This document shows, in pieces, positions 4,829 through 45,910 of a DNA stretch of 64,000 nucleotides (its first letter is position 1; each line of letters opens with the position of its first letter). A program made the translations under genes and the position numbers. The notes under the pieces are model-generated. The model was given only the letters and a program-made list of their open reading frames with translations, made no database searches and was not told the origin of the DNA. Source of the DNA: a virus (taxonomy: Duplodnaviria > Heunggongvirae > Uroviricota > Caudoviricetes); the IMG/VR virus record IMGVR_UViG_3300012983_000003, positions 1-64,000 of that record. One strand, given 5' to 3'.

Positions 4829-5275
4829 ATGAGAGCGACGGGTATCGTGAGGCGAATTGATGACTTGGGAAGAGTTGTAATCCCAAAGGAAATCCGCCGC
4901 ACTTTAAGACTTAGAGAGGGCGACCCTCTGGAATTATTCACTACGCCTGAAGGCGGTGTGGTTTTCCAAAAGTATAACGCGTATGACGAGTCCGAGTGGA
5001 GCAAACTGAAGTCTATGCTTCGCAAAATTATGCCCAATACCTCGTTTGCTATTTTGGACGGCTACGGTGAAAACAAAGCATTTACCAATAGAGAAATTGG
5101 TAATATGAATTTGGAAAAGCTTGAGATTGATAGCCGCCAGTATTCATATTATCCGGTTTATAATCACGGCGATACCGTGGCGTATCTCGTTGTCGGCAAC
5201 GCTGGGTGTGAAACCGACCGAGTAAACATTGCGATGGGTGTAATGCAGGAGTTTCTCGATGTGTCGGAGTGGTAA
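4829..5275 (+). CDS. AbrB/SpoVT/MazE-family swapped-hairpin DNA-binding protein with C-terminal extension
   Basis: N-terminus GIVRRIDDLGRVVIPKEIRRTLRLREGDPLELF closely resembles the AbrB N-domain. Confidence 0.7.
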   Translation: MRATGIVRRIDDLGRVVIPKEIRRTLRLREGDPLELFTTPEGGVVFQKYNAYDESEWSKLKSMLRKIMPNTSFAILDGYGENKAFTNREIGNMNLEKLEIDSRQYSYYPVYNHGDTVAYLVVGNAGCETDRVNIAMGVMQEFLDVSEW

Positions 5276-5276
5276 T

Positions 5277-5564
5277 ATGAAACCGTCTGATATAAACTTA
5301 ATCAAAACTTGTGACGCCTGCCCCGAACAATATGATGCCTATAACGCAATAACTAATGAAAAGATTGGTTATTTAAGGCTAAGGGGCGGGTGTTTTACTG
5401 TCCAGAACGCAAACGAGGAAATTATCATCTCCGCTTATCCCTTGGGAGATGGAATGTTCACCTCTGATGAGCGTGAGGGCTATCTGAATATGGCGAAAGA
5501 ATATTTAGCCATTGATTATGAAAACTCTCAGCACAAACCTGTTGGAGAGTTTAGCGAAGAATAA
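5277..5564 (+). CDS. Hypothetical protein
   Basis: ORF; GGAGTGG RBS before ATG at 5277. Confidence 0.4.
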   Translation: MKPSDINLIKTCDACPEQYDAYNAITNEKIGYLRLRGGCFTVQNANEEIIISAYPLGDGMFTSDEREGYLNMAKEYLAIDYENSQHKPVGEFSEE

Positions 5565-5582
5565 AACGGGAGTTTGATATAA

Positions 5583-5999
5583 ATGTATAAGTTTTTGTAT
5601 AACAAAACCTGTGATTTAATCGAAAGGATTATATTCTGGGTTCAGCTCATAGTTTCCATCACATTGCTTGCCGGACTTGTGGTTGTGCTTTGTTTCGGCG
5701 GAGCACTCAAGTGGTTATGGATTACCGTAGCGGTATTATGGTGGGTCGTGCAATTTGCCGAGGGTGTTTTCTACTTCTATAAGGCTAAAATTGTGTCTCT
5801 GCCTGCGATTGAGTGGTCTTTCAAGACCGAAACCGAAAACCTTAAAGAAGAGTCTATCAAAGAAGTTGTATGCGAAGCTGTTGATAGTATTCATAGGTTG
5901 AAAAACACAGCGATTGATGCCAGAAAAGACCAGTTAATTTATATGGGTCTAACCAAAACAGTATTTGCAGCACTTATGATTGTGTGTCTGCTAATCTAA
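5583..5999 (+). CDS. Hypothetical membrane protein
   Basis: Transmembrane helices. Confidence 0.4.
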   Translation: MYKFLYNKTCDLIERIIFWVQLIVSITLLAGLVVVLCFGGALKWLWITVAVLWWVVQFAEGVFYFYKAKIVSLPAIEWSFKTETENLKEESIKEVVCEAVDSIHRLKNTAIDARKDQLIYMGLTKTVFAALMIVCLLI

Positions 6000-6025
6000 A
6001 TCAAATAATAGTGGGGTGATAACCA

Positions 6026-6781
6026 ATGTATAGTGCAAACGCAAATATCATAACCGAAGCAAAAGATATTTGGGGTCTTTTTCAAAACAGTCGTGCAGAG
6101 TTACTACACGATATGGTAACAGTGGCAGAAAATGATGATTTTGATGTTATCATTTACCTCACTAACAATGATGGTAAACCCTGCTTAATGATTGAGTCAA
6201 GCAATGTTCAGAGTACCGAGTTTATCATCGAGGACGAAGCGAGTTGTGAGGCAACAGTATCAGAGGTATATGATACATACCTTACCGACAAAATCATAGA
6301 GGTCATCGCAGAGGAAGAAATGGAACTGGATTTAGAGCCAGAAGTTGTGATGGAAGAGCGAGAAGATGATATCACGAGTTTCTTTGTGAGATTGATTGAG
6401 GATTTATTCCCTGATGAGCCAATCATTTACAGTGAACTAATGGACGATTTGGTTGAAGACTGTAAAGAACATCTGCTTGAATGGTTCTATCGTAAACACG
6501 GTCTAAGCGTCTATCGTCCAATGGAATTGGAAGATGACGAGGGCGTGTTTGTTGAAGATTATCCGTATGAATGTATGGAATTTGAACCCAACCCAATGTA
6601 TGACGATTTTGAAGTCACGGACTTAGCCATTAACGGCAAAGATGTTATGGCTCTTGGTGTTCCGCAAGGCAAAGAAGTCGGAGATACTTTGGAGATGGTT
6701 CGCAAGTTTGTTGTCGGCGGTATTTTCCCGAACGACCACGACATCTTGATTGAAAGATTAAAGTCAATCAAGAAGAAATAA
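6026..6781 (+). CDS. Highly acidic protein (D/E-rich); possible DNA mimic
   Basis: Long runs of E/D in the translated ORF. Confidence 0.45.
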   Translation: MYSANANIITEAKDIWGLFQNSRAELLHDMVTVAENDDFDVIIYLTNNDGKPCLMIESSNVQSTEFIIEDEASCEATVSEVYDTYLTDKIIEVIAEEEMELDLEPEVVMEEREDDITSFFVRLIEDLFPDEPIIYSELMDDLVEDCKEHLLEWFYRKHGLSVYRPMELEDDEGVFVEDYPYECMEFEPNPMYDDFEVTDLAINGKDVMALGVPQGKEVGDTLEMVRKFVVGGIFPNDHDILIERLKSIKKK

Positions 6782-6792
6782 CCTCCCCGTAA

Positions 6793-6848
6793 GCGGATAC
6801 ATTCCGCGTTTAATATAAACCGCAGAAGAACATTCCCCGCTTCTGCGG
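6793..6848 (+). terminator. Two consecutive stem-loops after the acidic-protein gene
   Basis: gcgga..tccgc followed by a T-rich run, then a 9-bp stem ccgcagaag..cttctgcgg. Confidence 0.4.
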
Positions 6849-6932
6849 TTACGCTCACCTTGGCTCAACCTCCTCGTGGTGTGAGTGGACTTTGACTAAT
6901 GGAGTACATTGAATAAAAGGAGCGCATACACA

Positions 6933-7337
6933 ATGGCAAAACTTTCTATCTTAGGCAACGCAGTCGTAATCACTTCTGCAATCAAGTTCGAGGACATCCG
7001 TACTATCGAAAAGTACAAGAAGGATGCTCTTGTTCTTAAGGAAGATGTTGAGGGCAAGAAGGTTCCCGTGTTCGGTATCGCCACCGGTTCTAAGGGCGAA
7101 ATCAACCAGAACGGTGCAACTTTCGCGAACGCAACCCGCGATGACGACAAGTTTGCTCAGATTACCCTTTGCACCTGCCTTGATGGTATCACTGGCGATG
7201 TAAAGGAATGGGCTGCTGACAAGTTCGGTGTGGCAATCACTCGCCTCAACCAGCTCGAAGCAACTATCCCCGCCGTTCTCGACGGTATTGCTGCTGACAA
7301 GGCGGCTGTTATGTCTAACATTACTGTTGTTCAGTAA
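6933..7337 (+). CDS. Hypothetical protein bracketed by terminators; likely an abundant monocistronic product
   Basis: AAAAGGAG RBS; stem-loops upstream and downstream. Confidence 0.5.
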   Translation: MAKLSILGNAVVITSAIKFEDIRTIEKYKKDALVLKEDVEGKKVPVFGIATGSKGEINQNGATFANATRDDDKFAQITLCTCLDGITGDVKEWAADKFGVAITRLNQLEATIPAVLDGIAADKAAVMSNITVVQ

Positions 7338-7354
7338 GTTAGCAATCGACCGAT

Positions 7355-7380
7355 AGGGGCGGGTCAAACCGCCCCTTAAT
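7355..7380 (+). terminator. Rho-independent terminator (ggggcggg..ccgcccc + TT)
   Basis: GC-rich perfect stem. Confidence 0.6.
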
Positions 7381-7446
7381 TCAGCCAAGCACTCGTAGAG
7401 TGTGTCAACAATCCAAAAATCTAATTGATGTAAAGGAGACTTTATA

Positions 7447-7677
7447 ATGGTACAGGTAATCGTAGGTAATAATGTTAAGCGTGAGACAGTTGTAGTTTCT
7501 CCTGAGACTACTCTCCGTACAGTTCTCGAAGAGAATAACATCGACTACGCCCGTGGCGTTATGCACCTCGACGGTGCTTCTTTGAACCCCGGCGACCTTG
7601 ATAAGAGCTTTGCCACTCTCGGCATCACCGAGAAGTGCTACTTGCTCAATGTTGTAAAGGCTGATAACGCAGCGTAA
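7447..7677 (+). CDS. Small beta-grasp (ThiS/MoaD/ubiquitin-like) candidate, 76 aa, without C-terminal Gly-Gly
   Basis: Size and hydrophobic pattern resemble ThiS/MoaD; ends ...KADNAA. Confidence 0.4.
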   Translation: MVQVIVGNNVKRETVVVSPETTLRTVLEENNIDYARGVMHLDGASLNPGDLDKSFATLGITEKCYLLNVVKADNAA

Positions 7678-7695
7678 GCGTAAAGCCGGAATAAA

Positions 7696-7770
7696 GCGGG
7701 GTTGTATCCTCCATTCCAGCCCCGCAAAATAATAATAAATCCCGCTACCTCGGTGGTAGCGGGATTTTCT
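7696..7770 (+). terminator. Tandem terminators (gcgggg...ccccgc then an 11-bp stem atcccgctacc..ggtagcgggat + TTTT)
   Basis: Perfect stems followed by A/T runs. Confidence 0.7.
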
Positions 7771-7772
7771 AT

Positions 7773-7858
7773 GGGGGATTGGTGGAATTGGCAGACACAA
7801 GGGACTTAAAATCCCTCGGTGCTAAACCGTACCAGTTCAAGTCTGGTATCCCCCACCA
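7773..7858 (+). tRNA. tRNA-Leu (anticodon TAA), type II with long variable arm
   Basis: Cloverleaf with anticodon loop cttaaaa, T-loop ttcaagt, long variable arm. Confidence 0.8.
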
Positions 7859-7894
7859 CAAAATAATAAATCAACAACAAAGGAGAGGTGCCCA

Positions 7895-9391
7895 GTGTTT
7901 AGACAGGCAATCAATCAGACGGCATTGACATCTGATGCCGCTAACAGTTATTTTGAGCACATTCGAGGCGATAGTTATAACGGAGATGTTACCTTCCTCT
8001 CTACTTTGAGAGCACTTATTGCACCTCGTATGGCTGACGGCGAGTCGTTGTTTTTACGATTTGACCAATCTAATCTCAACGAAAGTACAGTTCGTGAAAC
8101 TCAACCAAAAAGACTTATCACGCACTTACTTCGCAATGTTGACATCAATCAGCCCGGCGTGTGCTATATCCATAGCGTTCAGAGTGGACGGCAGGAAGAT
8201 AATACTGCGTGTTTGGATGTTATTAAGTCAAACTTTGCAAGAGTTTACAACGGGTGGCATAGACTGCCTCGCGTATCCGATTTGTTTAGAAGCCAGTTTT
8301 ATACTTTGTGCTTCGTAAATCCAGAACTGAAATCGGTGGCGGTGTTTGTTGACAGTCTAAGCCAAAGCAAGATGCACTACTTACAGTGTGCAATTCTTGG
8401 TTTCTTCCCGTGGTATTTTAGTCCAGAAAAAGGCGTTACTCAGGACGAAATGGACTTAATTAACACATTAAGAGCCAAGGAACCCAATGACTACTCCGCT
8501 TGTATCGCAAAACTTTCGGAAAGATATGATTTCAGAACCGCAAGACTTAAGCAACAGCTTGCTGGATTTGAAACGATGTATGAAAGACAGCAGTGTGATA
8601 ATGTTCGACATAATATTACGGACTGTGATAATAAAATCGAAAGATATAACCAAAGCATAAGCGAACAACTTACGTATCGTAGAGACCTTGAAATTCAACT
8701 GCTCGGTCTCGAAGCGAAGATTGCCGCCGGTGGAGAGAATTCCGAAATTATGGATTATTTCATCCATAATAAGAGACTTGACTTGGATTATGTTAATAAT
8801 TCCGAGATGGTATTCACCATTAAGGATTACTTGTCGTATTTTGATGAAGACGCGGCAAAGCGCATTATTGATAACAGAAACAGTGTTATATATATGCCTG
8901 AAGGAAGAACTTGCAACAACTACATTAACGCGGGTAAGGTCAAGGAATTGATGTATGCCATCTTTATTGACCAGACCATACGCATCAGAGTATGTGCTGC
9001 ATATAAGTTCTCACTGACAGGAAACGTACACGGAATATCTGACTATCGATTTGGAGCCGAATTTGCAGGATATATGCCTAATCCGCACATTCAAGGTTAT
9101 AGCTGTATGGGTAATTACAGCAGACCAATTAACGAGTCTTTGCAGAAACACGATTATATCTCTGCGCTTGAGCAAACTATTGCATCAGCTAAGAGTCTAA
9201 ACTTTACAGACGGTACGGTAATGTCGTACTTTATGAAGAGAGTTTATGGCTTAGGCGACGGAGAAAATACTCGTGCAAGACGCAAGTGGTTTGAGTTACC
9301 CGATGGCACTTGTGTGACATCGGCTCAGGCGGCTGACTGGGTATGGTCTCAGAACCATCCTGATGGACAGGGGGAAACGACGAATGAGTAA
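7895..9391 (+). CDS. Large hypothetical protein (498 aa, GTG start); C-terminal region has an HPN-like E2/UBC active-site-like motif
   Basis: MPNPHIQGYSCMG aligns with the spacing of UBC HPNxxxxGxICL; rest unrecognised. Confidence 0.45.
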   Translation: MFRQAINQTALTSDAANSYFEHIRGDSYNGDVTFLSTLRALIAPRMADGESLFLRFDQSNLNESTVRETQPKRLITHLLRNVDINQPGVCYIHSVQSGRQEDNTACLDVIKSNFARVYNGWHRLPRVSDLFRSQFYTLCFVNPELKSVAVFVDSLSQSKMHYLQCAILGFFPWYFSPEKGVTQDEMDLINTLRAKEPNDYSACIAKLSERYDFRTARLKQQLAGFETMYERQQCDNVRHNITDCDNKIERYNQSISEQLTYRRDLEIQLLGLEAKIAAGGENSEIMDYFIHNKRLDLDYVNNSEMVFTIKDYLSYFDEDAAKRIIDNRNSVIYMPEGRTCNNYINAGKVKELMYAIFIDQTIRIRVCAAYKFSLTGNVHGISDYRFGAEFAGYMPNPHIQGYSCMGNYSRPINESLQKHDYISALEQTIASAKSLNFTDGTVMSYFMKRVYGLGDGENTRARRKWFELPDGTCVTSAQAADWVWSQNHPDGQGETTNE

Positions 9392-10379
9392 GGTTATTAA
9401 ACTCACAACTGAACAGTTACAGGAGTGCCGTAGAGATTTCGATACGGCACTTTCTACTATGAAGCTTACTGACGGTAAGATTTCTTTTATCAAGACCATT
9501 ACTTCTCCAAACGAAAAAGCAACTCTTTACTTCGACCCGCTTGCGTGGCGAAAAATGCAGACTCTTATAAAAGAATTTGATAAAGAGGTTGCTTGGCACG
9601 GCGTTGCATATCGCGGCGAGGATGAAACCAAAAATGAGTATTTCATCACTGATATTTTGGTTTATCCCCAGAAAGTTACCGGTGCTACCGTAAACACTGA
9701 CCAAGAGAAGTACGAGATGTGGTTAATGCAACACGAGGACGAAGTGTTCAATAATATTCGTATGCAGGGACATTCCCACGTGAATATGGCAACTTCTCCC
9801 TCTGGTGTTGATGAAACACATCAGGCAAAAATCCTTGAACAGCTCGAAGATGATATGTTCTATATCTTCTTGATTTGGAACAAATCCAACTCTAAGTTCA
9901 TCAAGATTTATGACCTCAAAAAGAACATCTTATTTGAGACCATTGATGTAACCGTGGAAATTCTTGATGATGGCTCGGGTATCGACGAGTTCTTGGCTGA
10001 TGCTAAGAAGTTAGTCGAAGATAAGCCGACTACATACTACAACGGCGGCAGTTATTATAGTGGTAACAACGGTTATCGCGGTTCTTATTATAACGGTCAG
10101 GGTGGCTACAGTGGTAGCACGGGTCAGACAGAAGCTAAAAAGGAAGAACCTAAGTCAGACGACAAGACTGGCGGTAAGGTTTTATCCTTTGATGATGTTA
10201 ACAAACAAATAAAAAATGGTTCTCAGTACGGTAAGAACGGCAAACGCAAGGGTAAGCGTAAAAAAAAAGAAAACATCGTTAACCCTAATAATGCTTCATC
10301 CGGCACTACTCAATTAACACTCTTTGATAGTGTGGACGAAGACCCATTTGGCAATAACGATAATTTTTTCCCAACGTGA
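9384..10379 (+). CDS. JAB/MPN (JAMM) metalloprotease-domain protein with G/Y/S-rich and basic C-terminal tail
   Basis: HSHVNMATSPSGVD fits HxHx7Sx2D, with an upstream Glu in EVAWHG. Confidence 0.7.
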   Translation: MSKVIKLTTEQLQECRRDFDTALSTMKLTDGKISFIKTITSPNEKATLYFDPLAWRKMQTLIKEFDKEVAWHGVAYRGEDETKNEYFITDILVYPQKVTGATVNTDQEKYEMWLMQHEDEVFNNIRMQGHSHVNMATSPSGVDETHQAKILEQLEDDMFYIFLIWNKSNSKFIKIYDLKKNILFETIDVTVEILDDGSGIDEFLADAKKLVEDKPTTYYNGGSYYSGNNGYRGSYYNGQGGYSGSTGQTEAKKEEPKSDDKTGGKVLSFDDVNKQIKNGSQYGKNGKRKGKRKKKENIVNPNNASSGTTQLTLFDSVDEDPFGNNDNFFPT

Positions 10380-10389
10380 GGTGAGCTAA

Positions 10390-10917
10390 TTGACAAGGCA
10401 AGAGTTTCTTGATGAGATTACCACTTGGTATGATTTGATTGAATGGTGCAATAACCATATGTGTTCTTATTGCGATGATATCTATAGCGATGAAGCACGA
10501 GATGAATACATTGACGAAGACCTTGTAGATATGGCTCGTAATAATAACTGGTATGAGTTAAGGGATATTCTCAGTAATCTCGCAACGGGACACGATTATT
10601 GGCGCAGAGATGAATACGGCGATTGGCACGGCGTTGATGACGAATTCGACGAATATTTCAACGATGTGCTTGAATGGGCTGATGAGAATGGCGAGTTCGA
10701 TGAAGAGGAAGAAGAACCCCTCTTTGTAGATGAAGATGACTACGAAGACGAAGCTGATGAATTTACCGTAGATACATCGGTAGCATTGGGTGATTTCTTC
10801 GCCTCGTCTGCCGACAACCTAACCAAAATCACATCAGAAGTAAAGGCTAACGAAGCCAAAGCAAATGCAGATTTCGATAAATTTACCCAACGAGTAACAA
10901 CCGTTGGAGATTATTAA
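10390..10917 (+). CDS. Highly acidic protein (TTG start); DNA-mimic candidate
   Basis: D/E-rich; runs of EEEEE. Confidence 0.45.
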   Translation: MTRQEFLDEITTWYDLIEWCNNHMCSYCDDIYSDEARDEYIDEDLVDMARNNNWYELRDILSNLATGHDYWRRDEYGDWHGVDDEFDEYFNDVLEWADENGEFDEEEEEPLFVDEDDYEDEADEFTVDTSVALGDFFASSADNLTKITSEVKANEAKANADFDKFTQRVTTVGDY

Positions 10918-10934
10918 GAAGGGAGATAATGCCA

Positions 10935-11609
10935 ATGATGGATTTAAGTAAATCCTACGAGTTTTTCCAGCCTGAAAAGTATGACGGCAGAATTCACATC
11001 ATCGGATGTGGTTCGGTAGGCTCGACATTAGCAGAAAACCTCGCTCGTTGTGGGGTTACAAAAATGACACTTTGGGATTTCGATACAGTCGAAAGCCACA
11101 ACATTGTAAATCAGATGTTCTCTCAACAGCACATCGGTAAGTCCAAGGTTGAAGCACTTGCAGATATCTTGGTTGACATTAACCCCTACATCAAGGACGA
11201 GCTTGAGCTTCAGCCGAAAGGTTGGCAGGGCAAACTGCTTTCCGGCTATATCTTCCTTTGTGTTGATAGCATTGAACTTCGCAGAGCGTTTGTCGAAAAG
11301 CATATGGACAGTCCGTATGTAAAAGCGGTATTTGATTTCCGAACTCTCCTCGAAAGTGCTCAGCACTACGCAGCGGATTGGTCGGACTACAAGATGAAGC
11401 AGACGCTTCTCAACTCAATGCAGTTCTCCCACGAGGAAGCCGCAGAAGAAACTCCCGTTTCTGCTTGTGGTATCACTCTTGGTGTAGCAACTACCGTTCG
11501 CCTTGTGTGTGCACTTGGCGTAAACAACTTCATCAACTTTGTAAAAGGCAACGGGATAAAGAAATTCGTTATGATTGACGGGTTCCGCTTTATCTTGGAT
11601 GCGTTCTAA
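10935..11609 (+). CDS. Minimal E1-like ThiF/MoeB/HesA-family adenylyltransferase
   Basis: [20 protein letters not shown]...[14 protein letters not shown] is the Rossmann/E1 signature; no rhodanese domain or CxxC. Confidence 0.7.
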
Positions 11610-12157
11610 TGAAGACTCGTTATAATCTGCTTGGTCAAACTTTTGATAGGTTAAAAGTAATTGAAGAAGTTGAGCCCTATATAGAACCATCCGGTAAGAA
11701 ACGATACCGATGGAAATGTTTGTGCGAGTGTGGCAATGAAACCATTGTTACAACTTGCAACTTACGAACTGGGCACACCCGAAGTTGTGGATGTCTGGAA
11801 GAGGAAGCTATATCAAGGATTTCTCACGACCCAAACATTCGCAGCAAAATTGCAAAGGCAAAAGTGAGACACGGACAATCTCATAGCAGATTATACGGGG
11901 TTTGGAACGCAATGAAACAACGGTGTCAAAACCCTAATAACGAAAAATATGCTTTGTATGGTGGTCGAGGGATAACCGTTTGTGAAGAATGGTTATCTTT
12001 CGACAATTTTTATGAATGGGCTATGCAAAGCGGATACGATGCTAACGCCCAGTATAGTGATTGCACTATCGATAGAATAGACCCGAACGGAAATTACGAA
12101 CCGTCAAACTGTCGATGGGCTAACGCTAAAACCCAAGCAAACAACAGACGAAACTAA
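11609..12157 (+). CDS. Putative HNH-family homing endonuclease (phage HNH with [11 protein letters not shown]...[12 protein letters not shown] module)
   Basis: Motif typical of phage HNH/AP2-type homing endonucleases; N-terminal Cys cluster. Confidence 0.6.
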
Positions 12158-12167
12158 TTTTAATTTA

Positions 12168-12481
12168 ATTTAACTGTAATGTTATCTGTTTCTTCCCCGA
12201 AGAAATGGCTTCTTACTGTTAGTGGAAGTAACAACTTGAGCAGAGCACGATACAGACAACCAGCAAAAACAGAGAAAGAAGACAGCGTTCCGATAAGCTT
12301 TTGTTTAATCATAAACCCATCTATTTGTCAAGTGTTTTCTACATTTATTTCTACGAAAGCATTGCGTTGCAACTCTTTCCCTAATTATTTTGCCAAGAAT
12401 TTGACCTGTTTTTCGAGTCTCAAGACACTTGTTTTAACGCGTTTAAAACAATCGTATTTCTATATTAGATTACAGTTAAAT
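12168..12481 (+). ncRNA. Candidate retron-like non-coding RNA (msr/msd-like) bounded by 13-nt inverted repeats
   Basis: atttaactgtaat (12168-12180) and attacagttaaat (12469-12481) form a perfect inverted repeat ending 22 nt before the RT start; internal hairpins; the 12179-12499 ORF is not credible. Confidence 0.5.
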
Positions 12482-12503
12482 CAATACGAACGGAGGTAAA
12501 TGA

Positions 12504-13874
12504 ATGTATTACATCACTGTTATGCAATCACCGATGTATCATCAGATGACTTTGGAAGAATTTTTGTTTGAAACAGAAAGTCGTCCGCAACTCATTAACC
12601 CCAATATGACCAACACTCGTACATACGAGGTTGAGAGTATCAGCGATAAGTTCTTGGAGCGTATTGATGTTGCAAAGTTAATCACGGCATTGGTGCAGTT
12701 CAATGAGGCTTTTGAGTCAGTACACAATCAGCCTCGCGAAAGCCTTTACAACACTTTCTATACCGAAAAGAAAGGTAAAGGTATGCCTTATGTATTCAAG
12801 AAAATGTTTGAAATTCAGAAGTCTTATGTCGAGTGCGACAGCTCTGCGGTTTGCAAAGAGGTTGGCACTACTTTAAGACAGATGTTAAGTCAGCACTCTA
12901 CCGATACCGATGCGGCTATTACCAAAACCGCAGTTGACCATTGTGTTAAGTATCTCACCGAGAACGGCTTTACTATCACATCTGAACAGCTTACTTCTAT
13001 CGTCAAGGAAGCATATCGTAGAATTGATGCTCCCAAGGACGAGTTATCCAACGCATTAAGACAGCTCAAGACTATCTTTGAGGAAAGATTTAATGCGTTA
13101 TATCACACCTCGGCTTTCGCCTATGTCAAGCGCCGTAGCACTTTGGATGCGGTTAAGCGTCATCAGGCAAACGAAAGCAAGTGGTTTGGTAAGTATGACT
13201 TATCGAACTTCTTTGGAAGCACAACCGTTGAATTCGTTATGAAGATGTTTTCAATGGTCTTCCCGTTCTCTGAGGTTGTGAAAGAACCCGTCGGTAAGAA
13301 CGCGCTCGAAACTGCAATTTCCCTTTGTATGTTAAACGGCGGTCTTCCGCAGGGTACTCCCATTTCCCCGCTGATTACTAACATTATGATGATACCTGTT
13401 GACTTTAAGTTAGCCAACGGTCTCAGAGATTTTAATAATCAGCGTTACATTTACACCAGATACGCGGATGACTTCCTCGTTTCTTCTAAATATGACTTTA
13501 AGTTCAGAGAAATCGAACAGTTCATCGTTGATACTTTGGCAAGTTTCGATGCTCCGTTCACCATTAAAGCCGAGAAGACTCGATACGGTTCTTCCGCTGG
13601 TTCTAATTGGAACCTCGGTGTAATGCTCAACAAGGATAATAACATCACTGTTGGGTATGAAAAGAAACGCAAGTTCCAAGCGATGCTCGCATCCTATGTG
13701 AAAGACCGTCAGAACGGTAATCCTTGGGATTTATCCGACATTCGCATTATGGAAGGTTATCGCAACTACTACAGAATGGTCGAGGGTGAAACCATCGACA
13801 AGTTAGTAGCGCACGTCGGCAATAAACTCGGCGTGGATATTGTTGAGCTTATCAAGGAAGACTTGAGAGCATAA
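12504..13874 (+). CDS. Reverse transcriptase, retron/Abi-like (not DGR type), with ~200-aa N-terminal extension
   Basis: RT motifs FAYVKRRSTLDAVKRH, KYDLSNFFGST, GLPQGTPISPLITNIMM, RYADDFLVSS. Confidence 0.85.
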   Translation: MYYITVMQSPMYHQMTLEEFLFETESRPQLINPNMTNTRTYEVESISDKFLERIDVAKLITALVQFNEAFESVHNQPRESLYNTFYTEKKGKGMPYVFKKMFEIQKSYVECDSSAVCKEVGTTLRQMLSQHSTDTDAAITKTAVDHCVKYLTENGFTITSEQLTSIVKEAYRRIDAPKDELSNALRQLKTIFEERFNALYHTSAFAYVKRRSTLDAVKRHQANESKWFGKYDLSNFFGSTTVEFVMKMFSMVFPFSEVVKEPVGKNALETAISLCMLNGGLPQGTPISPLITNIMMIPVDFKLANGLRDFNNQRYIYTRYADDFLVSSKYDFKFREIEQFIVDTLASFDAPFTIKAEKTRYGSSAGSNWNLGVMLNKDNNITVGYEKKRKFQAMLASYVKDRQNGNPWDLSDIRIMEGYRNYYRMVEGETIDKLVAHVGNKLGVDIVELIKEDLRA

Positions 13875-14517
13875 AGTTTCCAGTAATGTTATGACCAAGA
13901 TTTTATATTTTGGAGCTTCTCACTTTTAGTGGAAGTAACACGATGGCAAGAGGAAAACCAGAGATGACCCAGATGCAGACGGCTGCCTCTTCGTCTAATT
14001 TAGACGCCGGCATCCACTGTTCACATTCCGCCATCAGCAAAACCGTTGCATTGCAACGGTAAGGTAATCAGAAACCTTGCTGGTTTCCGGATACTTAGTA
14101 CCGCGGGCTCTCCTCCAGTAACGGTATTTCTGTAATAGATTACGGAAACGAAATTAAATCCATTAAGAACCCTGTTTGTGATGTATTGTATTCCTTTGAA
14201 TACACTTCTCGCTCTTAGCAGAAGTTTCATCTTGACGAGAACAGGACGGTGAGGAACTGGGAGTAAGACGACTGAAGTCGGAACCCTCCACGGGTTAATT
14301 TTCAGAGATTTCGTCATCAGTTGACATAATAACTGTCGGGAAATGGTTGCGTTGCAACCCAGCCCAATCCGAATTCCAAATCCGAACTGCTGTTTAACCA
14401 TCAAGTTAGCTTCCATCTCAGACATCTTTCAGGATTAGCGCTGCGGCTATTCTAATGTGGATTACATTCAGAGTTCTTATTGGATAAACCAAACTTAGAT
14501 TTTATTAACGAAAGCAG
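13875..14517 (+). ncRNA. Structured non-coding island downstream of the RT (hairpin-element copies, GTTGC-N3-GCAAC hairpins)
   Basis: 643 nt without credible ORF; several perfect stems (14043-14059, 14345-14359, 14204-14224). Confidence 0.4.
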
Positions 14518-14754
14518 GTGTATATTATGACCGTTTTTGATAGGTTTATGGAATTAACAAAAGAATTCACAGATATACACGATGCTTTCAAAGAATTATA
14601 TAACGAAATATGTAGGTTAAACCCAGACGATTTTGATAAAGCGTTATCCGATTTCGTAGACCTATATCACTCTGGTGATATATCCACACAACCTATCGTT
14701 GAAGAAAGTAGTCAAGAATTAAATCAGTTTCTTGCTGGATTTGAGGTGTCATAA
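14518..14754 (+). CDS. Hypothetical small protein
   Basis: ORF with RBS. Confidence 0.4.
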   Translation: MYIMTVFDRFMELTKEFTDIHDAFKELYNEICRLNPDDFDKALSDFVDLYHSGDISTQPIVEESSQELNQFLAGFEVS

Positions 14755-14984
14755 TGAATTGCTACACTTTCGATGAATTTATTGAGCAGGTGTATAAACC
14801 TCGTGATTATTGCAAGAGATTTGCAGTGATAGACCTTTACGAAACGCTAATGCAATACAATCGCGGAGTAATACTTTCTATTGATGGTGAGGAATTTAAG
14901 GTTGTTCCGCATAGTCAAGAGGTTGTTAAGGAATGTAGTCCAGAAATGAATGACTTTATAAATTGTTTTGCACAGGTGGTGTGA
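14754..14984 (+). CDS. Hypothetical small protein
   Basis: ORF, translationally coupled. Confidence 0.4.
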   Translation: MNCYTFDEFIEQVYKPRDYCKRFAVIDLYETLMQYNRGVILSIDGEEFKVVPHSQEVVKECSPEMNDFINCFAQVV

Positions 14985-14987
14985 TGA

Positions 14988-15248
14988 ATGAATATCGCTA
15001 AATTATGTGAGTTGCTTAACTTTATCAAAGTTAATAATTCGTGGGGTACTGATATGTATTACATCAACCACGAAAGAAATCGCAAATCAATTAAGTATGT
15101 GGATTTCTGCTTCGATAGTAGAGACGGTAGTATATGGTACATCAAATGCCGTGCTGTTACTGGAGAACCAGATAAGGAATTTCGCATAGAAAACCAAAAG
15201 GATTTGGATAAGTTTTACGAGTGGCTTAATGAGCCTTTGAATAAATAA
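14988..15248 (+). CDS. Hypothetical small protein
   Basis: ORF. Confidence 0.4.
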   Translation: MNIAKLCELLNFIKVNNSWGTDMYYINHERNRKSIKYVDFCFDSRDGSIWYIKCRAVTGEPDKEFRIENQKDLDKFYEWLNEPLNK

Positions 15249-15288
15249 ATTCAGGATGGTTTTTGTCTTTTAAGGACTATCCAATTAG

Positions 15289-15318
15289 CCGTTGTGTTGC
15301 AACGGGTTTTAAAAAATT
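15289..15318 (+). terminator. Stem-loop ccgttg..caacgg followed by ttttaaaaaa
   Basis: Hairpin plus T-run. Confidence 0.5.
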
Positions 15319-15353
15319 CTACAACCTAAGTGGTTGTAAAACGGAAAGGAGTG

Positions 15354-16172
15354 GTTGTTTTGACGAACAGAGAAGTTGCGAATAAGTTGTTCGACTATAT
15401 TCGTAAGAATTCTAAATTTGACCCGTATGATATTGAGTACGGAGATACATATTTCGTCTTTACCGGCGACCCAGATAGTGTAATTCACTTTCGAGTAAAA
15501 GGTGTCAGTAAACAATGGAAGTTTGGTATGTGGGTACACGCTGAATTCCTTGGCGACAGCGAACACTCCGAAGACCCCGTTATTCAGTTCTTCGCCCAGT
15601 GGGAAAAGGATATTGATAAGTTCAAGCCATCACGAAGCGATATTTGTGTAAAAATAACCGCACAACAGTTTGCCGAAGATGTCGATAACGATGGTTGGAT
15701 GTATTACGATATTATGCACGCACTTGATATGATGAGAAATCACCCTATTCTCTGTTATTGCGGAATTTGTGGAGAAGATGGTTATGGATATACAAGCATC
15801 AAGAGCTTCACTTGGTATTTTATCAAGGGCGAATTTTATCATTTCAAAAAGGCAGTCTCGAAAGCATTGATGACTGCAATTTTCCTGCCGATTTGCAAAT
15901 TCAAGGTATGGAGAGCAAATCGCCACAAGTGTGTAGAACTATGCGAGATATATAATTTCGAGAAACGGAACCCCGGATGGTCTACATCACACGATTACTG
16001 TATCGAGTGTAATTTTAAAGAGTCGGCTACCGATGAAGAAATGTATAAGGTGGCTCGCATCTTTAAGAGACAAAGATATGGTAAGTATGGTTGTTTCCAG
16101 AGAGTCGCAGAGATTGACTGCTATACTCAAACAGGTAGAGACGGTTGTTTTGGATTTTCGTTTGATGATTGA
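15354..16172 (+). CDS. Hypothetical Cys-rich protein (start uncertain, TTG or GTG)
   Basis: ORF with AAAGGAG RBS; multiple CxxC motifs. Confidence 0.45.
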   Translation, partial: VVLTNREVANKLFDYIRKNSKFDPYDIEYGDTYFVFTGDPDSVIHFRVKGVSKQWKFGMWVHAEFLGDSEHSEDPVIQFFAQWEKDIDKFKPSRSDICVKITAQQFAEDVDNDGWMYYDIMHALDMMRNHPILCYCGICGEDGYGYTSIKSFTWYFIKGEFYHFKKAVSKALMTAIFLPICKFKVWRANRHKCVELCEIYNFEKRNPGWSTSHDYCIECNFKESATDEEMYKVARIFKRQRYGKYGCFQRVAEIDCYTQTGRDGCFGFSFDD

Positions 16173-16673: not shown

Positions 16674-16758
16674 GCGGATATGCTGGAATTGGCAGACAGG
16701 CACGTTTGAGGGGCGTGTGCTGAATAGCGTGTGGGTTCAAGTCCCACTATCCGCACCA
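16674..16758 (+). tRNA. tRNA-like gene, type II (long variable arm), with apparent 9-nt anticodon loop tttgagggg (TGA core; Ser-like?)
   Basis: Acceptor gcggata/tatccgc, T-arm gtggg-ttcaagt-cccac, encoded CCA; anticodon arm non-canonical. Confidence 0.5.
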
Positions 16759-18379: not shown

Positions 18380-19100
18380 AAATGTTTAAAACGGTGCGGT
18401 TTTTATGAAACTGTCAAATGTCCATCAAAGAGGAAAGCAGCCGTCAGCGTCCCCGTATGTAGATTGATTGAATGATACTTTTACACTTTTGTTATACATA
18501 AATCAGCCAATCACTTCTTGCTGTCAGCAGAAGTTCCAATTTGTAAGTTACGCTCTATTCGTTAGAAATAATTAGCCTTCCGTGCGATGCTTCGACATCG
18601 CACTTCCGCTATTTATTTCTAACCACCGACTGAAAATAGCCTACTTTTAAAAGTTGCGCAGGGCGCTCCTTTTAAAAGCATCAATTTTCAGCGGTGCCGA
18701 GCGACGCTACGGCATTTGCTTGGGCTACCTCAAGCTTGACGCCCATAGCAAACGGATACGGGGACAAAATCTGATATTTCAGCGCGACTATATAAGTATT
18801 CTCTGCAATATGAGATAACTTTGAACCGCGCTTTAATATACCCACAATGTAGATTGATTATCTTTCTTTTGAATTTTATTCGTTATACATAAACGATAAT
18901 CGCTTCTTACTGACAGTAGAAGTTGCGAAATGTTAGAGGTTCCTCGCGTGTCTCATCAACGAGATGTCACACGAGGCTTATTGCGCACGAGGCGCAAACA
19001 GCCACGAGTAACATCCCTATGATGAGACTACTAATCTCGCTCTCGCTCGTGCATAGATTTAACTCTTCACCGAAGAGTAAATCTACAGGATTGTGGGTAA
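18380..19100 (+). other. Structured non-coding island: two copies of the tgtagattgatt / gttatacataaa / hairpin module, nested inverted repeats
   Basis: No credible ORF; IR gttagaaataa/ttatttctaac around the gtgcgatg..catcgcac stem; palindromic cttttaaaag x2. Confidence 0.4.
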
Positions 19101-19108
19101 TAATATAT

Positions 19109-19184
19109 GCCTATGTAGCTCAGATGGATATGAGCAGCCACGCACAGAGTGGTATGCCGTGGGTTCGAGTCCCACTATAGGCGA
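19109..19184 (+). tRNA. tRNA-like gene with unusual anticodon loop gcacaga (anticodon ACA?; C at position 33)
   Basis: Acceptor, D, T (gtggg-ttcgagt-cccac) arms fold; anticodon stem gccac/gtggt. Confidence 0.5.
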
Positions 19185-20353: not shown

Positions 20354-21151
20354 ATGATTAAACTCAATGGTACACCCGTTGAAATTAACAAATTTCCCGA
20401 CGGCACACTTTTAATGAAGCAGGAATACAGTGAAGCACAGCTCGATGTAATCGACTGGAGATTTCAGAACAACGAAGAGCTTGTCGCGTTGTATTTCTTA
20501 ACTAATCATCTTCGTGATAGTGGTGCAAAAAATATCGAGTTAAGAATGTGGTATATCCCTAACGCAAGACAGGACAGGGTTAAAAAGTCTGAAGATATTT
20601 TCACCCTGAAATACTTTGCAAAGTTTATCAACTCATTAAAATTCAACAAAGTTCGTGTGTTAGACCCTCACTCCTCTGTATCGGGAGCGCTGTTTGATAA
20701 TCTTCACGAGGGTAAGCCCGAGTTCCTCATTGCCGAGGTTTATGACAGAGTTTCCGAAATTGTGGGTAGCGAAGAGACAATTATGTTCTATCCAGACGAG
20801 GGCGCTATGAAGCGTTACTCTGGTATGATTTCTAAGCCGTATGCGTTTGGTATCAAGGAACGCGACTGGTCTTCGGGTCAAATTAGAGGTCTCTCTGTCT
20901 TTGGAGAAGATATTGTTAAGGGTCGCAACATTTTGATTGTTGATGATATTAGCAGTAGAGGTGGTACATTCTACCATAGCGCCAAGAAGCTTAAAGAACT
21001 TGGAGCAGAAAGAATTTTCCTCTTTGTAAGCCATTGCGAAAACACAATCCTTGAGGGTGAGGTTTTGTCCAGTGGTTTGATTGAAAGAGTTTATACAACC
21101 GACAGTCTGTTTACAGCAGAACACGAGAAAATTGAGGTGATTGAAATATGA
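20354..21151 (+). CDS. Ribose-phosphate pyrophosphokinase (Prs)-family enzyme; possibly an ADP-ribose pyrophosphokinase of an NAD-reconstitution pathway
   Basis: YIPNARQDR, VRVLDPHSS and ILIVDDISSRGGT align with Prs motifs. Confidence 0.65.
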   Translation: MIKLNGTPVEINKFPDGTLLMKQEYSEAQLDVIDWRFQNNEELVALYFLTNHLRDSGAKNIELRMWYIPNARQDRVKKSEDIFTLKYFAKFINSLKFNKVRVLDPHSSVSGALFDNLHEGKPEFLIAEVYDRVSEIVGSEETIMFYPDEGAMKRYSGMISKPYAFGIKERDWSSGQIRGLSVFGEDIVKGRNILIVDDISSRGGTFYHSAKKLKELGAERIFLFVSHCENTILEGEVLSSGLIERVYTTDSLFTAEHEKIEVIEI

Positions 21152-25766: not shown

Positions 25767-25789
25767 ATTCCTGTAATGAAAATCGTCAT

Positions 25790-26090
25790 TTCTGGCTGAA
25801 AAAGCAATTTAAGGAAATGAAGCTTCTTGCTGATAGCAGAAGTAACTCTTTGTCAAGAGGAAGAATGTGCAGCAGGCGATGAGCGAGCCCTGCAATGCAG
25901 GTGATTGCCGGGTAGTTACAGGGGAAACTTCGACGGTAGCACGGAGGAAGCGTTGCATTGCAACATCTCATCCTCCATTGCCCACCCCTGTCTCCTGAGC
26001 TGTCCACTCCTGCGTCAGGAAAGATGAAGGCGAACCTTCACCTCCTTCCTATATGAGATTACAGGTAATAACTTTTAGGTGGTGATACAT
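25790..26090 (+). other. Structured non-coding island (hairpin-element copy at 25822-25842, GTTGCATTGCAAC at 25942-25954, ctgcaatgcag palindrome)
   Basis: No credible ORF; shared motifs. Confidence 0.4.
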
Positions 26091-38687: not shown

Positions 38688-38783
38688 AAAAATAGGTGCC
38701 GATTTTCCTTTGTGTCACAACGGTTAATCGGGTACTTGATGAAATACTATAGTGATAGTATCTTTCGCGAAGGAGTGAAGCAA

Positions 38784-42713: not shown

Positions 42714-42744
42714 AATTGCCCTCCATAAAAATTTCTCTTTGGGT

Positions 42745-42780
42745 GTTGACATCTGAGGAGTTTTATGTTACCATTAGACC
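42745..42780 (+). promoter_or_regulatory. Candidate rightward promoter (TTGACA - 17 - TACCAT)
   Basis: -35 match at 42745-42750. Confidence 0.35.
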
Positions 42781-45646: not shown

Positions 45647-45910
45647 ATGGCTAAGACAAAAGATGTTCTTCAGCAGAAACAAAAGGAACTTGCCGATTGC
45701 CAAAAGCAGTTCGGCGCAGCGATTTCCATTGTGACTTCTACGGTACAGAATTTGACTCACATCAACGAGGAAATTCAGACCAAGGTTCAGGAAATCGAAG
45801 AGTATCAGAGTCAGCTCAATGCAACAAAGACTGGCTTAAAAGACACACAAAAGAAGAATGAGCGTATCATTAAGAACTTTAATGCTTTGCTCGATGTGGG
45901 TGATGAATAA
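45647..45910 (+). CDS. Hypothetical coiled-coil protein
   Basis: ORF with AAGGAG RBS. Confidence 0.4.
   Translation: MAKTKDVLQQKQKELADCQKQFGAAISIVTSTVQNLTHINEEIQTKVQEIEEYQSQLNATKTGLKDTQKKNERIIKNFNALLDVGDE

What the first reader, a model, noticed from the sequence alone, without database searches (positions are those of the whole stretch)
7447..11609. Phage-borne ubiquitin-like conjugation cassette candidate: beta-grasp protein, E2-like motif, JAB/JAMM protease, minimal E1
Within 4.2 kb on one strand sit a 76-aa ThiS/MoaD-like beta-grasp candidate, a 498-aa protein with an HPN-like E2 motif, a JAMM metalloprotease (HxHx7Sx2D), a strongly acidic protein and a minimal ThiF/MoeB/E1-like adenylyltransferase with no rhodanese domain. 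E1 plus JAB plus Ubl operons are established in bacteria as Ubl-conjugation modules (Iyer/Aravind classes; Bil/Bub antiphage systems; CBASS Cap2/Cap3). Finding one inside a phage, interrupted by a tRNA-Leu and tandem terminators, raises the possibility of a phage counter-defence or virion-protein modification system. This is the strongest candidate in the window for an undescribed system.
Basis: partly seen in the sequence, partly recalled or inferred. Interest (0 to 1): 0.85.

Follow-up and report, generated by a model that had tools for sequence, protein, structure and literature searches.

The report
Phage ubiquitin-like cassette joined to retron
A large family of gut phage-like genomes carries a compact ubiquitin-like tagging kit (tag, E2-like carrier, JAB protease, minimal E1) that sits directly in front of a retron, a pairing I could not find described, so it may be a new way of wiring protein tagging to a reverse-transcriptase system.

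Summary

The gene order Ubl-E2-JAB-E1 matches bacterial BilABCD defence operons. It is not a sequence-level Bil member. The E1 is minimal, the Ubl ends in ...ADNA rather than Gly, and the E2-like protein is three times larger.

In two deeply diverged clades (about 120 loci) the block runs: a 134-aa protein, Ubl, E2-like, JAB, E1, then a structured RNA and a retron-type reverse transcriptase. The RNA starts 8-40 nt after the E1 stop codon and its structure is supported by covariation. The acidic protein is movable. The element looks temperate.

Most likely this is a working Ubl-conjugation cascade. It is possibly the effector arm of a phage-borne retron. Targets and role are unknown.

The parts
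6933..7337 (+). U1: a conserved 134-aa protein of unknown fold that always lies directly upstream of the Ubl gene. The ORF as listed starts at TTG 6909; homologues support the ATG at 6933.
   Evidence: Present upstream of the Ubl gene wherever the locus reaches that far, in both clades (30-61% identity). It has no Pfam or PDB match. It is one of only six genes shared as a block between the two clades.
7352..7380 (+). GC-rich hairpin after U1 (GGGGCGG..CCGCCCC).
   Evidence: Read directly from the sequence. Function not tested.
7447..7677 (+). Ubiquitin-like beta-grasp protein of 76 aa with a flexible C-terminal tail ...VVKADNA(A).
7697..7766 (+). Two hairpins after the Ubl gene (7697-7726 and 7739-7766). 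The second is followed by TTTTCTAT.
   Evidence: I14. Terminator function is inferred only.
7773..7858 (+). tRNA-Leu (anticodon UAA), 36 nt upstream of the 498-aa gene.
   Evidence: ARAGORN and Rfam at 54.8 bits. It is at the same position in 11 of 16 loci checked; one locus has tRNA-Met there.
7895..9391 (+). B: a 498-aa protein with three parts. These are an N-terminal alpha/beta domain (1-222, unknown), a long helix (225-278) and a C-terminal UBC/RWD-like domain (about 284-450) with the candidate catalytic Cys404.
9363..10379 (+). C: a JAB/JAMM metalloprotease (domain about residues 50-200) with a low-complexity tail of about 130 aa, rich in Gly/Tyr/Ser and then Lys. The probable start is ATG 9384, which overlaps the stop of B by 8 nt.
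   Evidence: E75, H137, H139, S147 and D150 are conserved. The best PDB profile match is Rpn11, aligned on the motif, at E 0.19. PADLOC JAB scores E 0.012.
10390..10917 (+). D: an acidic 175-aa protein with a conserved N-terminal region carrying Cys residues. It is a movable, non-constant neighbour.
   Evidence: pI 4.05. It is a real family (alignment). It lies between JAB and E1 in about half of clade-1 loci, sits 3-5 kb downstream or is absent in the rest, and is absent from clade 2.
10929..11609 (+). E: a minimal E1-like adenylation domain of 226 aa with GCGSVG, D50/D52, K73, D113 and R118. C180 is invariant and is a candidate thioester Cys. Asn61 replaces the usual Arg of the NxxRQ motif.
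   Evidence: Pfam ThiF 3e-21. PADLOC Cap2 E1-E2 scores 9e-18. PDB matches are UBA1, UBA5, MoeB, TcdA, MccB and Cap2 at 1e-15 to 1e-8.
11609..12157 (+). HNH homing-endonuclease-like gene inserted between the E1 gene and the retron RNA in this genome only.
   Evidence: PHROG 374 at 1e-64. It is absent at this position in all other loci; one locus has a homologue between the Ubl gene and B.
12172..12477 (+). Retron-like ncRNA unit 1. It comprises a1 AACTGTAAT (12172-12180), an invariant G at 12181, two covarying stem-loops, a variable core and a2 ATTACAGTT (12469-12477), ending 26 nt before the RT start codon.
   Evidence: Alignment A6. On 21 pairs, 93% of cells are paired and 16 pairs show compensatory change; 0 of 500 shuffles reach this and slid controls give about 40%. 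The covariance model R1 scores 73 bits. Clade 2 has the same design with a compensated a1/a2.
12504..13874 (+). Retron-type reverse transcriptase of 456 aa. It has YADD and carries a 77-aa insertion relative to most homologues.
   Evidence: Pfam RVT_1 3.6e-17. NCBIfam retron St85 scores 6.7e-43, at 147 bits below the cutoff of 235. PADLOC retron RT_II-A scores 1.8e-37. The start codon was fixed by alignment.
13881..14466 (+). Two further retron-like ncRNA units directly after the RT gene, at 13881-14145 and 14177-14466.
   Evidence: R1 hits at 41 and 44 bits. The a1/a2 arms were read from the sequence.

Best explanation
This is a genuine ubiquitin-like protein-conjugation cassette with the gene order of bacterial BilABCD systems (Ubl, E2-like, JAB, E1). 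It is carried by a temperate-type, SPbeta/Clostridioides-phage-like element and forms the upstream part of a conserved block that ends in a retron.

Proposed mechanism:
1. The minimal E1, presumably a homodimer like MoeB and ThiF, adenylates the C-terminal carboxylate of the 76-aa Ubl. That C-terminus is ...Lys-Ala-Asp-Asn-Ala.
2. The JAB protease first trims the 0-3 extra residues that some variants carry. It can later reverse conjugates.
3. The Ubl passes as a thioester to E1 Cys180 and/or directly to Cys404 of the UBC-like domain of the 498-aa protein.
4. The fast-evolving N-terminal domain and coiled coil of that protein choose the target, and the Ubl is attached to a target lysine. No E3 is involved.

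The retron RNA starts 8-40 nt after the E1 stop codon in both clades. I therefore infer one transcription unit, with the retron (RT plus msDNA) acting as sensor or regulator and the Ubl cascade as effector. On this reading the block is a defence or superinfection-exclusion module of the lysogen.

What is shown: the folds, motifs, conservation, gene order and RNA structure. What is inferred: adenylation of a non-Gly C-terminus, the thioester relay, the target, the coupling to the retron and the biological role.

For: E1: Pfam ThiF 3e-21 and PDB E1 enzymes down to 1e-15. The nucleotide-binding and Mg-binding residues and C180 are invariant in 71 sequences.

JAB: the full JAMM residue set is invariant in 94 sequences, and the Rpn11 alignment falls on the motif.

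Gene order: identical to Bil, Ubl-E2-DUB-E1 (10.1101/2023.09.26.559546).

Variable overhang: 0-3 residues follow a conserved ...ADNA. This parallels the 2-9-residue overhangs after the conserved Gly in BilA, which the JAB removes.

Packing: the genes overlap or are separated by 11-12 nt.

Conservation as a block: about 120 loci in two clades whose E2-like proteins share only 22-24% identity. Within the 13.4-kb clade-2 loci, these six genes are the ones that match the window as a contiguous block.

Retron: the RT is retron-type. The ncRNA has a covarying a1/a2 helix and an invariant G. In at least eight loci the ncRNA begins no more than 40 nt after the E1 stop codon.

Temperate-type context: a CI/LexA-like repressor and a recombinase. 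Studied retrons are mostly prophage-associated (PMC7736814).
Against: No known conjugated or sulfur-carrying Ubl ends in Asn-Ala. BilA needs its C-terminal Gly, and there is no Gly in the last 15 residues here.

The E1 has Asn in place of the conserved Arg of the NxxRQ motif and lacks the CxxC zinc site. My placing of C180 at the crossover-loop position rests on a non-significant sub-alignment to UBA5.

Profile support for the JAB is weak (E 0.012-0.19).

hhalign of the Ubl and E1 profiles against E. aridi BilA and BilD gives only E of about 0.007.

Conserved synteny within related phages can reflect common descent rather than joint function. One locus (L060) has the cassette with no RT within 5 kb.

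Copies of the ncRNA also lie far from the cassette, at 18.5, 18.9 and 25.8 kb. This does not fit a simple one-operon retron.

No target is known and there are no expression data.
Confidence: 0.55

Rival explanations
1. The biochemistry is the same (a working Ubl-conjugation cascade), but it serves the phage's own infection cycle. It would tag host defence or other host proteins (counter-defence or takeover), or phage virion and assembly proteins. On this reading the retron is only a neighbour.
For: The cassette sits at a fixed position across two deeply diverged clades and in more than 1000 sequence variants. That looks more like a vertically inherited core function than fast-turnover defence cargo. 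It lies on the same strand as the replication and nucleotide-metabolism genes. The genome also carries an NAD-salvage pair, Prs-like plus NAMPT, which I recall as a phage counter-defence pathway. The E2-like protein is the fastest-evolving member (22-52% identity against 56-87% for E1), as expected for a part that tracks a variable target. crAss-like phages also keep a JAB-like protease next to a ThiF in their replication module.
Against: Nothing identifies a target. The retron RNA abuts the E1 stop codon in both clades, which is hard to reconcile with mere neighbourhood. Known Bil-type systems and retrons act in defence.
Confidence: 0.25
2. This is not a protein-conjugation system. The E1 activates the C-terminus of the small beta-grasp protein for sulfur transfer (as with ThiS, MoaD or TtuB) or for another C-terminal chemistry (as MccB does on a C-terminal Asn). 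The JAB would only process the carrier.
Against: There is no Gly-Gly C-terminus, which to my knowledge every characterised sulfur carrier has. There is no rhodanese domain, no PP-loop thiolase and no ThiG/MoaE-type partner in the block or beside the desulfurase-like gene. The block always includes a large protein with a UBC/RWD-like domain and an invariant Cys, which sulfur-carrier systems do not need. The desulfurase-like gene is 27 kb away.
Confidence: 0.1
3. The similarity of the 498-aa protein to E2 enzymes is coincidental. It would be an unrelated structural or regulatory protein, and only Ubl, JAB and E1 work together, in an E2-independent system like archaeal SAMP/UbaA/JAMM1.
Confidence: 0.1

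Closest known systems
BilABCD (Bil, 'ISG15-like') antiphage ubiquitination systems, types I and II (10.1101/2023.09.04.556158; 10.1101/2023.09.26.559546)
   Different: The E1 here is a 226-aa single adenylation domain, whereas BilD has about 535 aa with inactive and active adenylation domains plus a CYS domain. The Ubl ends in ...ADNA, not Gly. The E2-like protein is 498 aa with an extra N-terminal domain and a coiled coil. There is no significant sequence similarity. The carrier is a phage-like element, and the cassette is followed by a retron.
Type II CBASS Cap2 (E1-E2 fusion) and Cap3 (JAB)
   Same: The E1 domain gives its best PADLOC hits to Cap2 (9e-18). It is a MoeB/ThiF-like adenylation domain that works with an E2 Cys and a JAB antagonist.
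   Different: There is no CD-NTase and no CBASS effector in the block. E1 and E2 are separate genes. A true beta-grasp Ubl is present, whereas CBASS conjugates the C-terminus of the CD-NTase itself.
Retrons (msr-msd ncRNA plus RT plus effector; 13 types in PMC7736814)
   Same: The RT gives its best hits to retron models. The ncRNA lies directly upstream of the RT gene, is closed by an a1/a2 helix and has an invariant G after a1. Accessory genes lie on the same strand. The carrier is a temperate-phage-like element.
   Different: No retron type with ThiF, JAB or ubiquitin-like partners is listed (literature searches). The RT scores below the curated cutoff and has DAVKRH and LGV where retrons have NAxxH and VTG. 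At least five ncRNA units are present per genome instead of one.
Archaeal SAMP / UbaA / HvJAMM1 and bacterial TtuB/TtuC
   Same: These also combine a minimal MoeB-like E1, a small beta-grasp modifier and a JAMM protease.
   Different: They have no E2. Their modifiers end in Gly-Gly and double as sulfur carriers.
JAB-like metalloprotease plus ThiF pair in crAss-like phages (for example cr111_1 gp_23287/gp_23286, MT774387.1)
   Same: This is also a phage-borne, adjacent pair of a JAMM-motif protease and a small ThiF. hhalign of the JAB profile against gp_23287 gives 83% probability, with the motif HSHNNMQTFFSGTD.
   Different: I detected no homologue of the E2-like protein there, and no Ubl or RT is annotated in the ±5-kb region shown. 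The annotation reads only 'thiamine biosynthesis protein' and 'metalloprotease domain'.
Lambda/T1 tail-assembly Ubl (TAPI) with JAB-NlpC/P60 (TAPK) (PMC1779556)
   Same: This is the previously described phage-encoded pairing of a Ubl with a JAB.
   Different: That pair sits in the tail gene cluster, has no E1 or E2, has its JAB fused to NlpC/P60, and has a Ubl with a conserved C-terminal Gly.

Membership tests
BilABCD | Gene order Ubl - E2 - JAB DUB - E1 in one operon | tested here: met
   ORF order and spacing. The same order is seen in about 120 loci. The Bil order is given.
BilABCD | Ubl with a fully conserved C-terminal Gly as the conjugation site | tested here: not met
   The beta-grasp fold is present. 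The tail is ...KADNA plus 0-3 residues, with no Gly in the last 15 residues. BilA's Gly is essential.
BilABCD | E1 with an inactive adenylation domain, an active adenylation domain and an inserted CYS domain | tested here: not met
   The protein has 226 aa and one ThiF domain. BilD has about 535 aa.
BilABCD | Detectable sequence homology to BilA, BilB and BilD | tested here: not met
   hhalign against the E. aridi sequences gives: BilB probability below 1%; BilA E 0.008 and probability 5%; BilD E 0.0065 and probability 6%, over the Rossmann part only. The single-sequence templates make this a weak test.
BilABCD | JAB/JAMM deubiquitinase with catalytic Glu, His-x-His, Ser and Asp | tested here: met
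   E75, H137, H139, S147 and D150 are at least 97% conserved.
UBC/E2 superfamily | UBC fold: alpha1, a four-stranded meander, a loop carrying the catalytic Cys, then C-terminal helices | tested here: inconclusive
UBC/E2 superfamily | HPN motif about 8 residues before the catalytic Cys; a match to Pfam UQ_con or the Prok-E2 models | tested here: inconclusive
   P395 and N396 lie 9 and 8 residues before the invariant C404. The His of HPN is missing, and N396 is Gln in clade 2. There is no Pfam hit at E up to 0.1.
Type II CBASS (Cap2/Cap3) | CD-NTase and effector genes in the operon; E1 and E2 fused in one protein | tested here: not met
   No such domains are found in the block. E1 and the E2-like protein are separate genes.
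ThiS/MoaD-ThiF/MoeB sulfur-carrier systems | Carrier ending in Gly-Gly; E1 with a CxxC zinc site and/or rhodanese domain; sulfur-acceptor enzymes adjacent | tested here: not met
   The tail is ADNA. The only conserved Cys residues in the E1 are C27 and C180. No rhodanese, ThiG, MoaE or PP-loop enzyme is in the block. A class-V aminotransferase lies 27 kb away with no thiolase beside it.
Retron | ncRNA directly upstream of the RT gene, closed by inverted repeats a1/a2, with a conserved branching G after a1 | tested here: met
   A6 and its pair counts: 93% paired, 16 of 21 pairs with compensatory change, 0 of 500 shuffles. The G is invariant. Clade 2 has a compensated a1/a2.
Retron | RT of the retron clade with region X (NAxxH) and region Y (VTG) | tested here: inconclusive
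   The best hits are retron models, but below cutoff (147 against 235 bits). The motifs read DAVKRH and LGV: the His and the Gly are kept, the rest differs.
Retron | Production of msDNA; an effector held in check by RT-msDNA | not testable with these tools
   This needs expression of the ncRNA and RT with detection of msDNA, plus genetics.
Lambda-type tail assembly Ubl/JAB (TAPI/TAPK) | Location in the tail gene cluster; JAB fused to NlpC/P60 | tested here: not met
   The neighbours are replication and nucleotide-metabolism genes. There is no NlpC/P60 domain. The family is described.

The most novel reading that the evidence does not exclude
The whole block would be one system and a new retron type. 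It comprises the 134-aa protein, the Ubl, the E2-like protein, the JAB, the E1, the ncRNA and the RT. Its effector arm would be a ubiquitin-like conjugation cascade, carried by temperate phages of gut Firmicutes and served by several ncRNA templates spread over the phage genome. The RT-msDNA complex would sense a trigger and switch Ubl conjugation on or off. Alternatively, the complex or the 134-aa protein would itself be the conjugation substrate. The modifier would use a non-glycine (Asn-Ala) C-terminus.
Probability: 0.3. Interest if true: 0.9.

Novelty: new variant of a known kind. Interest (0 to 1): 0.8.

Why it matters
Bacterial ubiquitin-like conjugation (Bil, Bub, CBASS Cap2/3) has so far been described as host immunity against phages. 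Here a complete Ubl-E2-JAB-E1 set is a long-conserved part of phage-like genomes that are abundant in gut and rumen metagenomes.

It is built differently from the known systems. Its E1 is the smallest of the Ubl-conjugation E1s I compared it with. Its modifier lacks the supposedly obligatory C-terminal glycine. Its large E2-like protein could combine the E2 and substrate-selection roles.

If it is active, it widens the chemical rules for E1 and Ubl recognition. It also gives a compact three-protein tagging system for study.

Its direct junction with a retron is absent from the retron classification I checked (PMC7736814) and from my literature searches. That junction suggests a link between reverse-transcribed DNA sensing and protein tagging, and it can be tested with a few co-expression and mutant experiments.

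Tried and rejected
Searches that found nothing:
- Near-identical DNA in 50,697 GenBank phages: only the tRNA matched.
- Pfam, NCBIfam, PHROG and PADLOC for the Ubl, B and D: no hit apart from a weak Cobl Ubl-domain match for the Ubl (E 0.012, below cutoff).
- PDB profile searches for the Ubl, B and U1: nothing meaningful.
- Foldseek against the PDB with the B model: nothing below E 0.1.
- Local hhalign of the C- and N-terminal domains of B against UBE2D2, UBC9, UBE2N and BilB: probability about 1% or less.
- Rfam on 5000-16000: only the tRNA. The ncRNA is therefore not a curated family.

Hypotheses considered and dropped:
- Diversity-generating retroelement: no template/variable repeat pair around the RT. 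The repeats there are the ncRNA units.
- The acidic protein as a core member: rejected by synteny.
- A sulfur relay, suggested by the desulfurase-like gene: no thiolation partner found.
- The protein upstream of JAB in crAss-like phages and the 892-aa protein upstream of ThiF in Xanthomonas jumbo phages as homologues of B: no similarity.

Limits of the tools:
It was repeated with database homologues.

Full report
**1. What is in the sequence**

The region holds five tightly packed + strand ORFs at the coordinates given. Between the first and second lies a tRNA-Leu(UAA) at 7773-7858. Two hairpins sit between the 76-aa gene and the tRNA.

Nearly all large ORFs in the window lie on the + strand. 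They include:
- a DnaE-type DNA polymerase, primase, helicase, ligase, RtcB, NrdD and NAMPT;
- a CI/LexA-like repressor, which is the one large minus-strand gene;
- an MrpR-type recombinase and an ERF recombinase.

The nearest cultured relatives by polymerase are Clostridioides phages LIBA6276 and LIBA2945 (39%) and large Bacillus phages (34-37%). A relative also encodes a YonO-like RNA polymerase. The element is therefore phage-like and of temperate type. MAG bins that contain relatives are mostly Clostridia, though not consistently.

**2. The five proteins**

*(e) The 226-aa protein.* This is a ThiF/E1 adenylation domain (Pfam 3e-21). PDB matches to UBA1, UBA5, MoeB, TcdA, MccB and Cap2 run from 1e-15 to 1e-8, and PADLOC Cap2 models score 9e-18. 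GCGSVG, D50, D52, K73, D113, R118 and C180 are invariant. Two departures stand out:
- Asn61 sits where E1 enzymes have the Arg of NxxRQ (alignment to UBA5).
- There is no CxxC zinc site.

*(c) The 338-aa protein.* It carries E75, H137-x-H139, S147 and D150, which is the full JAMM set, conserved in 94 sequences. A profile search of the PDB puts Rpn11 first, aligned on the motif, but only at E 0.19. Its last 130 or so residues are low-complexity: Gly/Tyr/Ser-rich, then Lys-rich, then acidic and aromatic. Homologues start at the Met encoded at 9384, which overlaps the stop of the preceding gene by 8 nt.

*(b) The 498-aa protein.* It has no family match anywhere. It belongs nonetheless to a very large family: 2239 representatives at 50% identity, 946 of them at E up to 1e-30. 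The model is confident (pLDDT 86.7). It shows an alpha/beta domain (1-222), a 54-residue helix, and a second alpha/beta domain from residue 284.

- Spc24/25
- RWDD3
- the E2 1yrv

Foldseek and hhalign do not confirm this.

Across 107 sequences from both clades the only near-invariant cysteine is C404. It lies in the motif P395-(N/Q)-x-H398-I399-x4-C404. The Pro/Asn-to-Cys spacing of 9 and 8 residues is that of P76/N77/C85 in UbcH5. That comparison rests on my own knowledge and was not tested here. I therefore call the C-terminal domain E2-like with moderate confidence.

*(d) The acidic protein.* It is a real conserved family with an N-terminal Cys-containing region. Its position varies and it is missing from clade 2. 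It is not a core part.

**3. Conservation and the true extent of the unit**

Sixty IMG/VR loci, two ENA loci and fifteen MAG contigs carry the window-like form on contigs of 60-360 kb. One GenBank record (MT835544.1) and 46 IMG/VR contigs of about 140-150 kb carry a second clade.

| Protein | Identity, clade 2 vs window | Identity, within clade 1 |
|---|---|---|
| B (E2-like) | 22-24% | 31-52% |
| E1 | 56-60% | 67-87% |
| Ubl | 51-55% | 51-81% |
| JAB | 38-45% | 46-73% |

In both clades the order is U1 (about 134-143 aa), Ubl, B, JAB, E1, RT.

I compared the ORFs of three clade-2 loci (13.4 kb each) with the whole 64-kb window. These six genes are the only ones that match as a contiguous block. 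One or two of the loci also have an ORF that matches a gene about 15 kb away in the window. So the block, not the surrounding genome, is what is conserved. Fast-evolving small flanking genes could escape detection.

B is the fastest-evolving member.

**4. The retron**

The RT (12504-13874) gives its best hits to retron models: NCBIfam St85 at 6.7e-43 and PADLOC RT_II-A at 1.8e-37. It scores below the curated cutoff.

The 290-370 nt in front of it are noncoding in every locus that has no insertion. An alignment of 14 loci shows four features:
- a 5' arm, AACTGTAAT;
- an invariant G;
- two stem-loops;
- a 3' arm, ATTACAGTT, about 25 nt before the RT start codon.

Counting the 21 proposed pairs gives 93% paired cells and 16 pairs with changes on both sides. 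None of 500 shuffles reaches these values, and slid controls give about 40%. Clade 2 has the same layout with both arms changed in step, to AATCGTGAT and ATCACGATT. This is the architecture of a retron msr-msd RNA as described in PMC7736814.

A covariance model of the 5' part finds more units, all on the + strand in gene gaps. Two lie just after the RT gene. Others lie at 18486, 18866 and 25771, and I could read matching arms for two of those three. Other clade-1 loci have one unit before the RT gene and one to three after it.

In loci without insertions the RNA begins 8-40 nt after the E1 stop codon. That leaves no room for a terminator plus a promoter. In the window itself an HNH endonuclease gene has been inserted there.

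Against obligatory coupling, one locus (L060) lacks an RT within 5 kb of the E1 gene.

**5. How it most likely works**

[quoted passage not shown] The evidence that bears on each part is as follows.

- *Cascade and order.* The folds, the invariant catalytic residues and the Bil-type gene order point to a working cascade.
- *Ubl C-terminus.* The ...ADNA tail followed by 0-3 variable residues mirrors the overhangs that BilC removes from BilA.
- *Hairpins and tRNA.* These would allow more Ubl than enzyme to be made. This is inference only.
- *Retron.* It abuts the E1 gene, characterised retrons act in defence with borrowed effector modules, and they are mostly prophage-borne. I therefore favour a retron-linked defence or exclusion role in the lysogen.

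An infection-cycle role (counter-defence or virion modification) is not excluded. The deep, position-stable conservation of the block favours that reading.

**6. What does not fit**

- The Ubl has no C-terminal Gly, which Bil needs.
- The E1 has Asn in place of the motif Arg.
- The E2 assignment is structural and of moderate strength.
- Copies of the ncRNA are scattered across the genome.
- Nothing identifies a target.
- A class-V aminotransferase at 38712-39968 keeps a sulfur-relay idea alive. However, no thiolation enzyme or Gly-Gly carrier is present.

**7. Comparison with known systems and novelty**

The closest system in how it works is BilABCD. Membership fails on three counts: the E1 architecture, the Ubl C-terminus and sequence homology.

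The other comparisons are:
- CBASS Cap2/Cap3 shares the E1 type but not the operon content.
- Archaeal SAMP systems share the minimal E1 but have no E2.
- Lambda-type TAPI/TAPK is the older phage Ubl/JAB pairing and sits in an unrelated context.
- crAss-like phages have an adjacent JAB-like protease and ThiF. Phage-borne JAB-E1 pairs are therefore wider than this family, but they are annotated only as 'thiamine biosynthesis' and 'metalloprotease'.

Full-text searches for combinations of phage, Ubl, E1, JAB and retron terms found no description of this cassette or of a retron linked to such genes. The retron classification paper names none. The library is incomplete, so this is absence of evidence only.

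I rate the finding a new variant of a known kind and give it high interest.

Noticed in passing
window 12172-12477, 13881-14145, 14177-14466, 18486-18545, 18849-19088, 25770-26066: There are at least five or six copies of a roughly 240-300-nt retron-like ncRNA unit. Each has a closing a1/a2 helix, an invariant G and two covarying stem-loops. All lie on the + strand in gene gaps, and several are far from the single RT gene. Known retrons have one ncRNA. None of the three units within the Rfam-scanned stretch (5000-16000) matches an Rfam family.
   Followed up: partly
window 11609-12157: An HNH homing-endonuclease-like gene is inserted exactly between the E1 stop codon and the retron RNA in this genome only. 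A homologue sits between the Ubl gene and the E2-like gene in locus L004.
   Followed up: partly
window 7773-7858; loci L001, L003, L004, L005, L033, L045, L047, L054, L057, L058, L061: A tRNA-Leu(UAA) gene lies 25-40 nt upstream of the E2-like gene in most clade-1 relatives; L008 has tRNA-Met there. The first tRNA-Leu and a second one at 16674 are both preceded by a similar hairpin (repeat D2).
   Followed up: partly
L126 (MT774387.1, crAss-like phage cr111_1) 3637-5642: crAss-like phages keep a protein with a JAMM motif (HSHNNMQTFFSGTD) directly upstream of a small ThiF in the replication module. Xanthomonas and Erwinia jumbo phages also have a small ThiF next to an 892-aa protein of unknown function (L125).
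   Followed up: partly
window 20354-22629: A ribose-phosphate-pyrophosphokinase-like gene is followed directly by nicotinamide phosphoribosyltransferase. This is an NAD-salvage pair of the kind I recall being reported as a phage answer to NAD-depleting defences.
   Followed up: no
window 38712-39968: A class-V aminotransferase (cysteine-desulfurase-like; Pfam 2e-82) lies in a phage-like genome. No recognisable sulfur-acceptor enzyme is beside it.
   Followed up: partly
window 41919-42752 (-), 43933-44892, 45910-46623: A CI/LexA-like repressor (HTH plus S24 peptidase) is the only large minus-strand gene. It is followed by an MrpR-type recombinase and an ERF recombinase. Together they look like a lysogeny or plasmid-maintenance switch.
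   Followed up: no
window 19108-19184: ARAGORN calls a tRNA-Cys with anticodon ACA, which is unusual (GCA is the norm). It lies just after two of the retron-like RNA units.
   Followed up: no
window 6026-6781: An acidic 251-aa protein has a C-terminal 50 residues that match the tail domain of CCA-adding tRNA nucleotidyltransferase (Pfam 4e-6). The rest has no match.
   Followed up: no
window 12504-13874, residues about 100-176 of the RT: The RT of this genome and of L003 carries a 77-aa insertion between the N-terminal extension and the RT fingers. Almost all homologues lack it.
   Followed up: no
L001 20258-20557: A tmRNA gene (tag peptide ANRQMLAVA) lies in a related 206-kb contig, about 5 kb downstream of the retron.
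   Followed up: no
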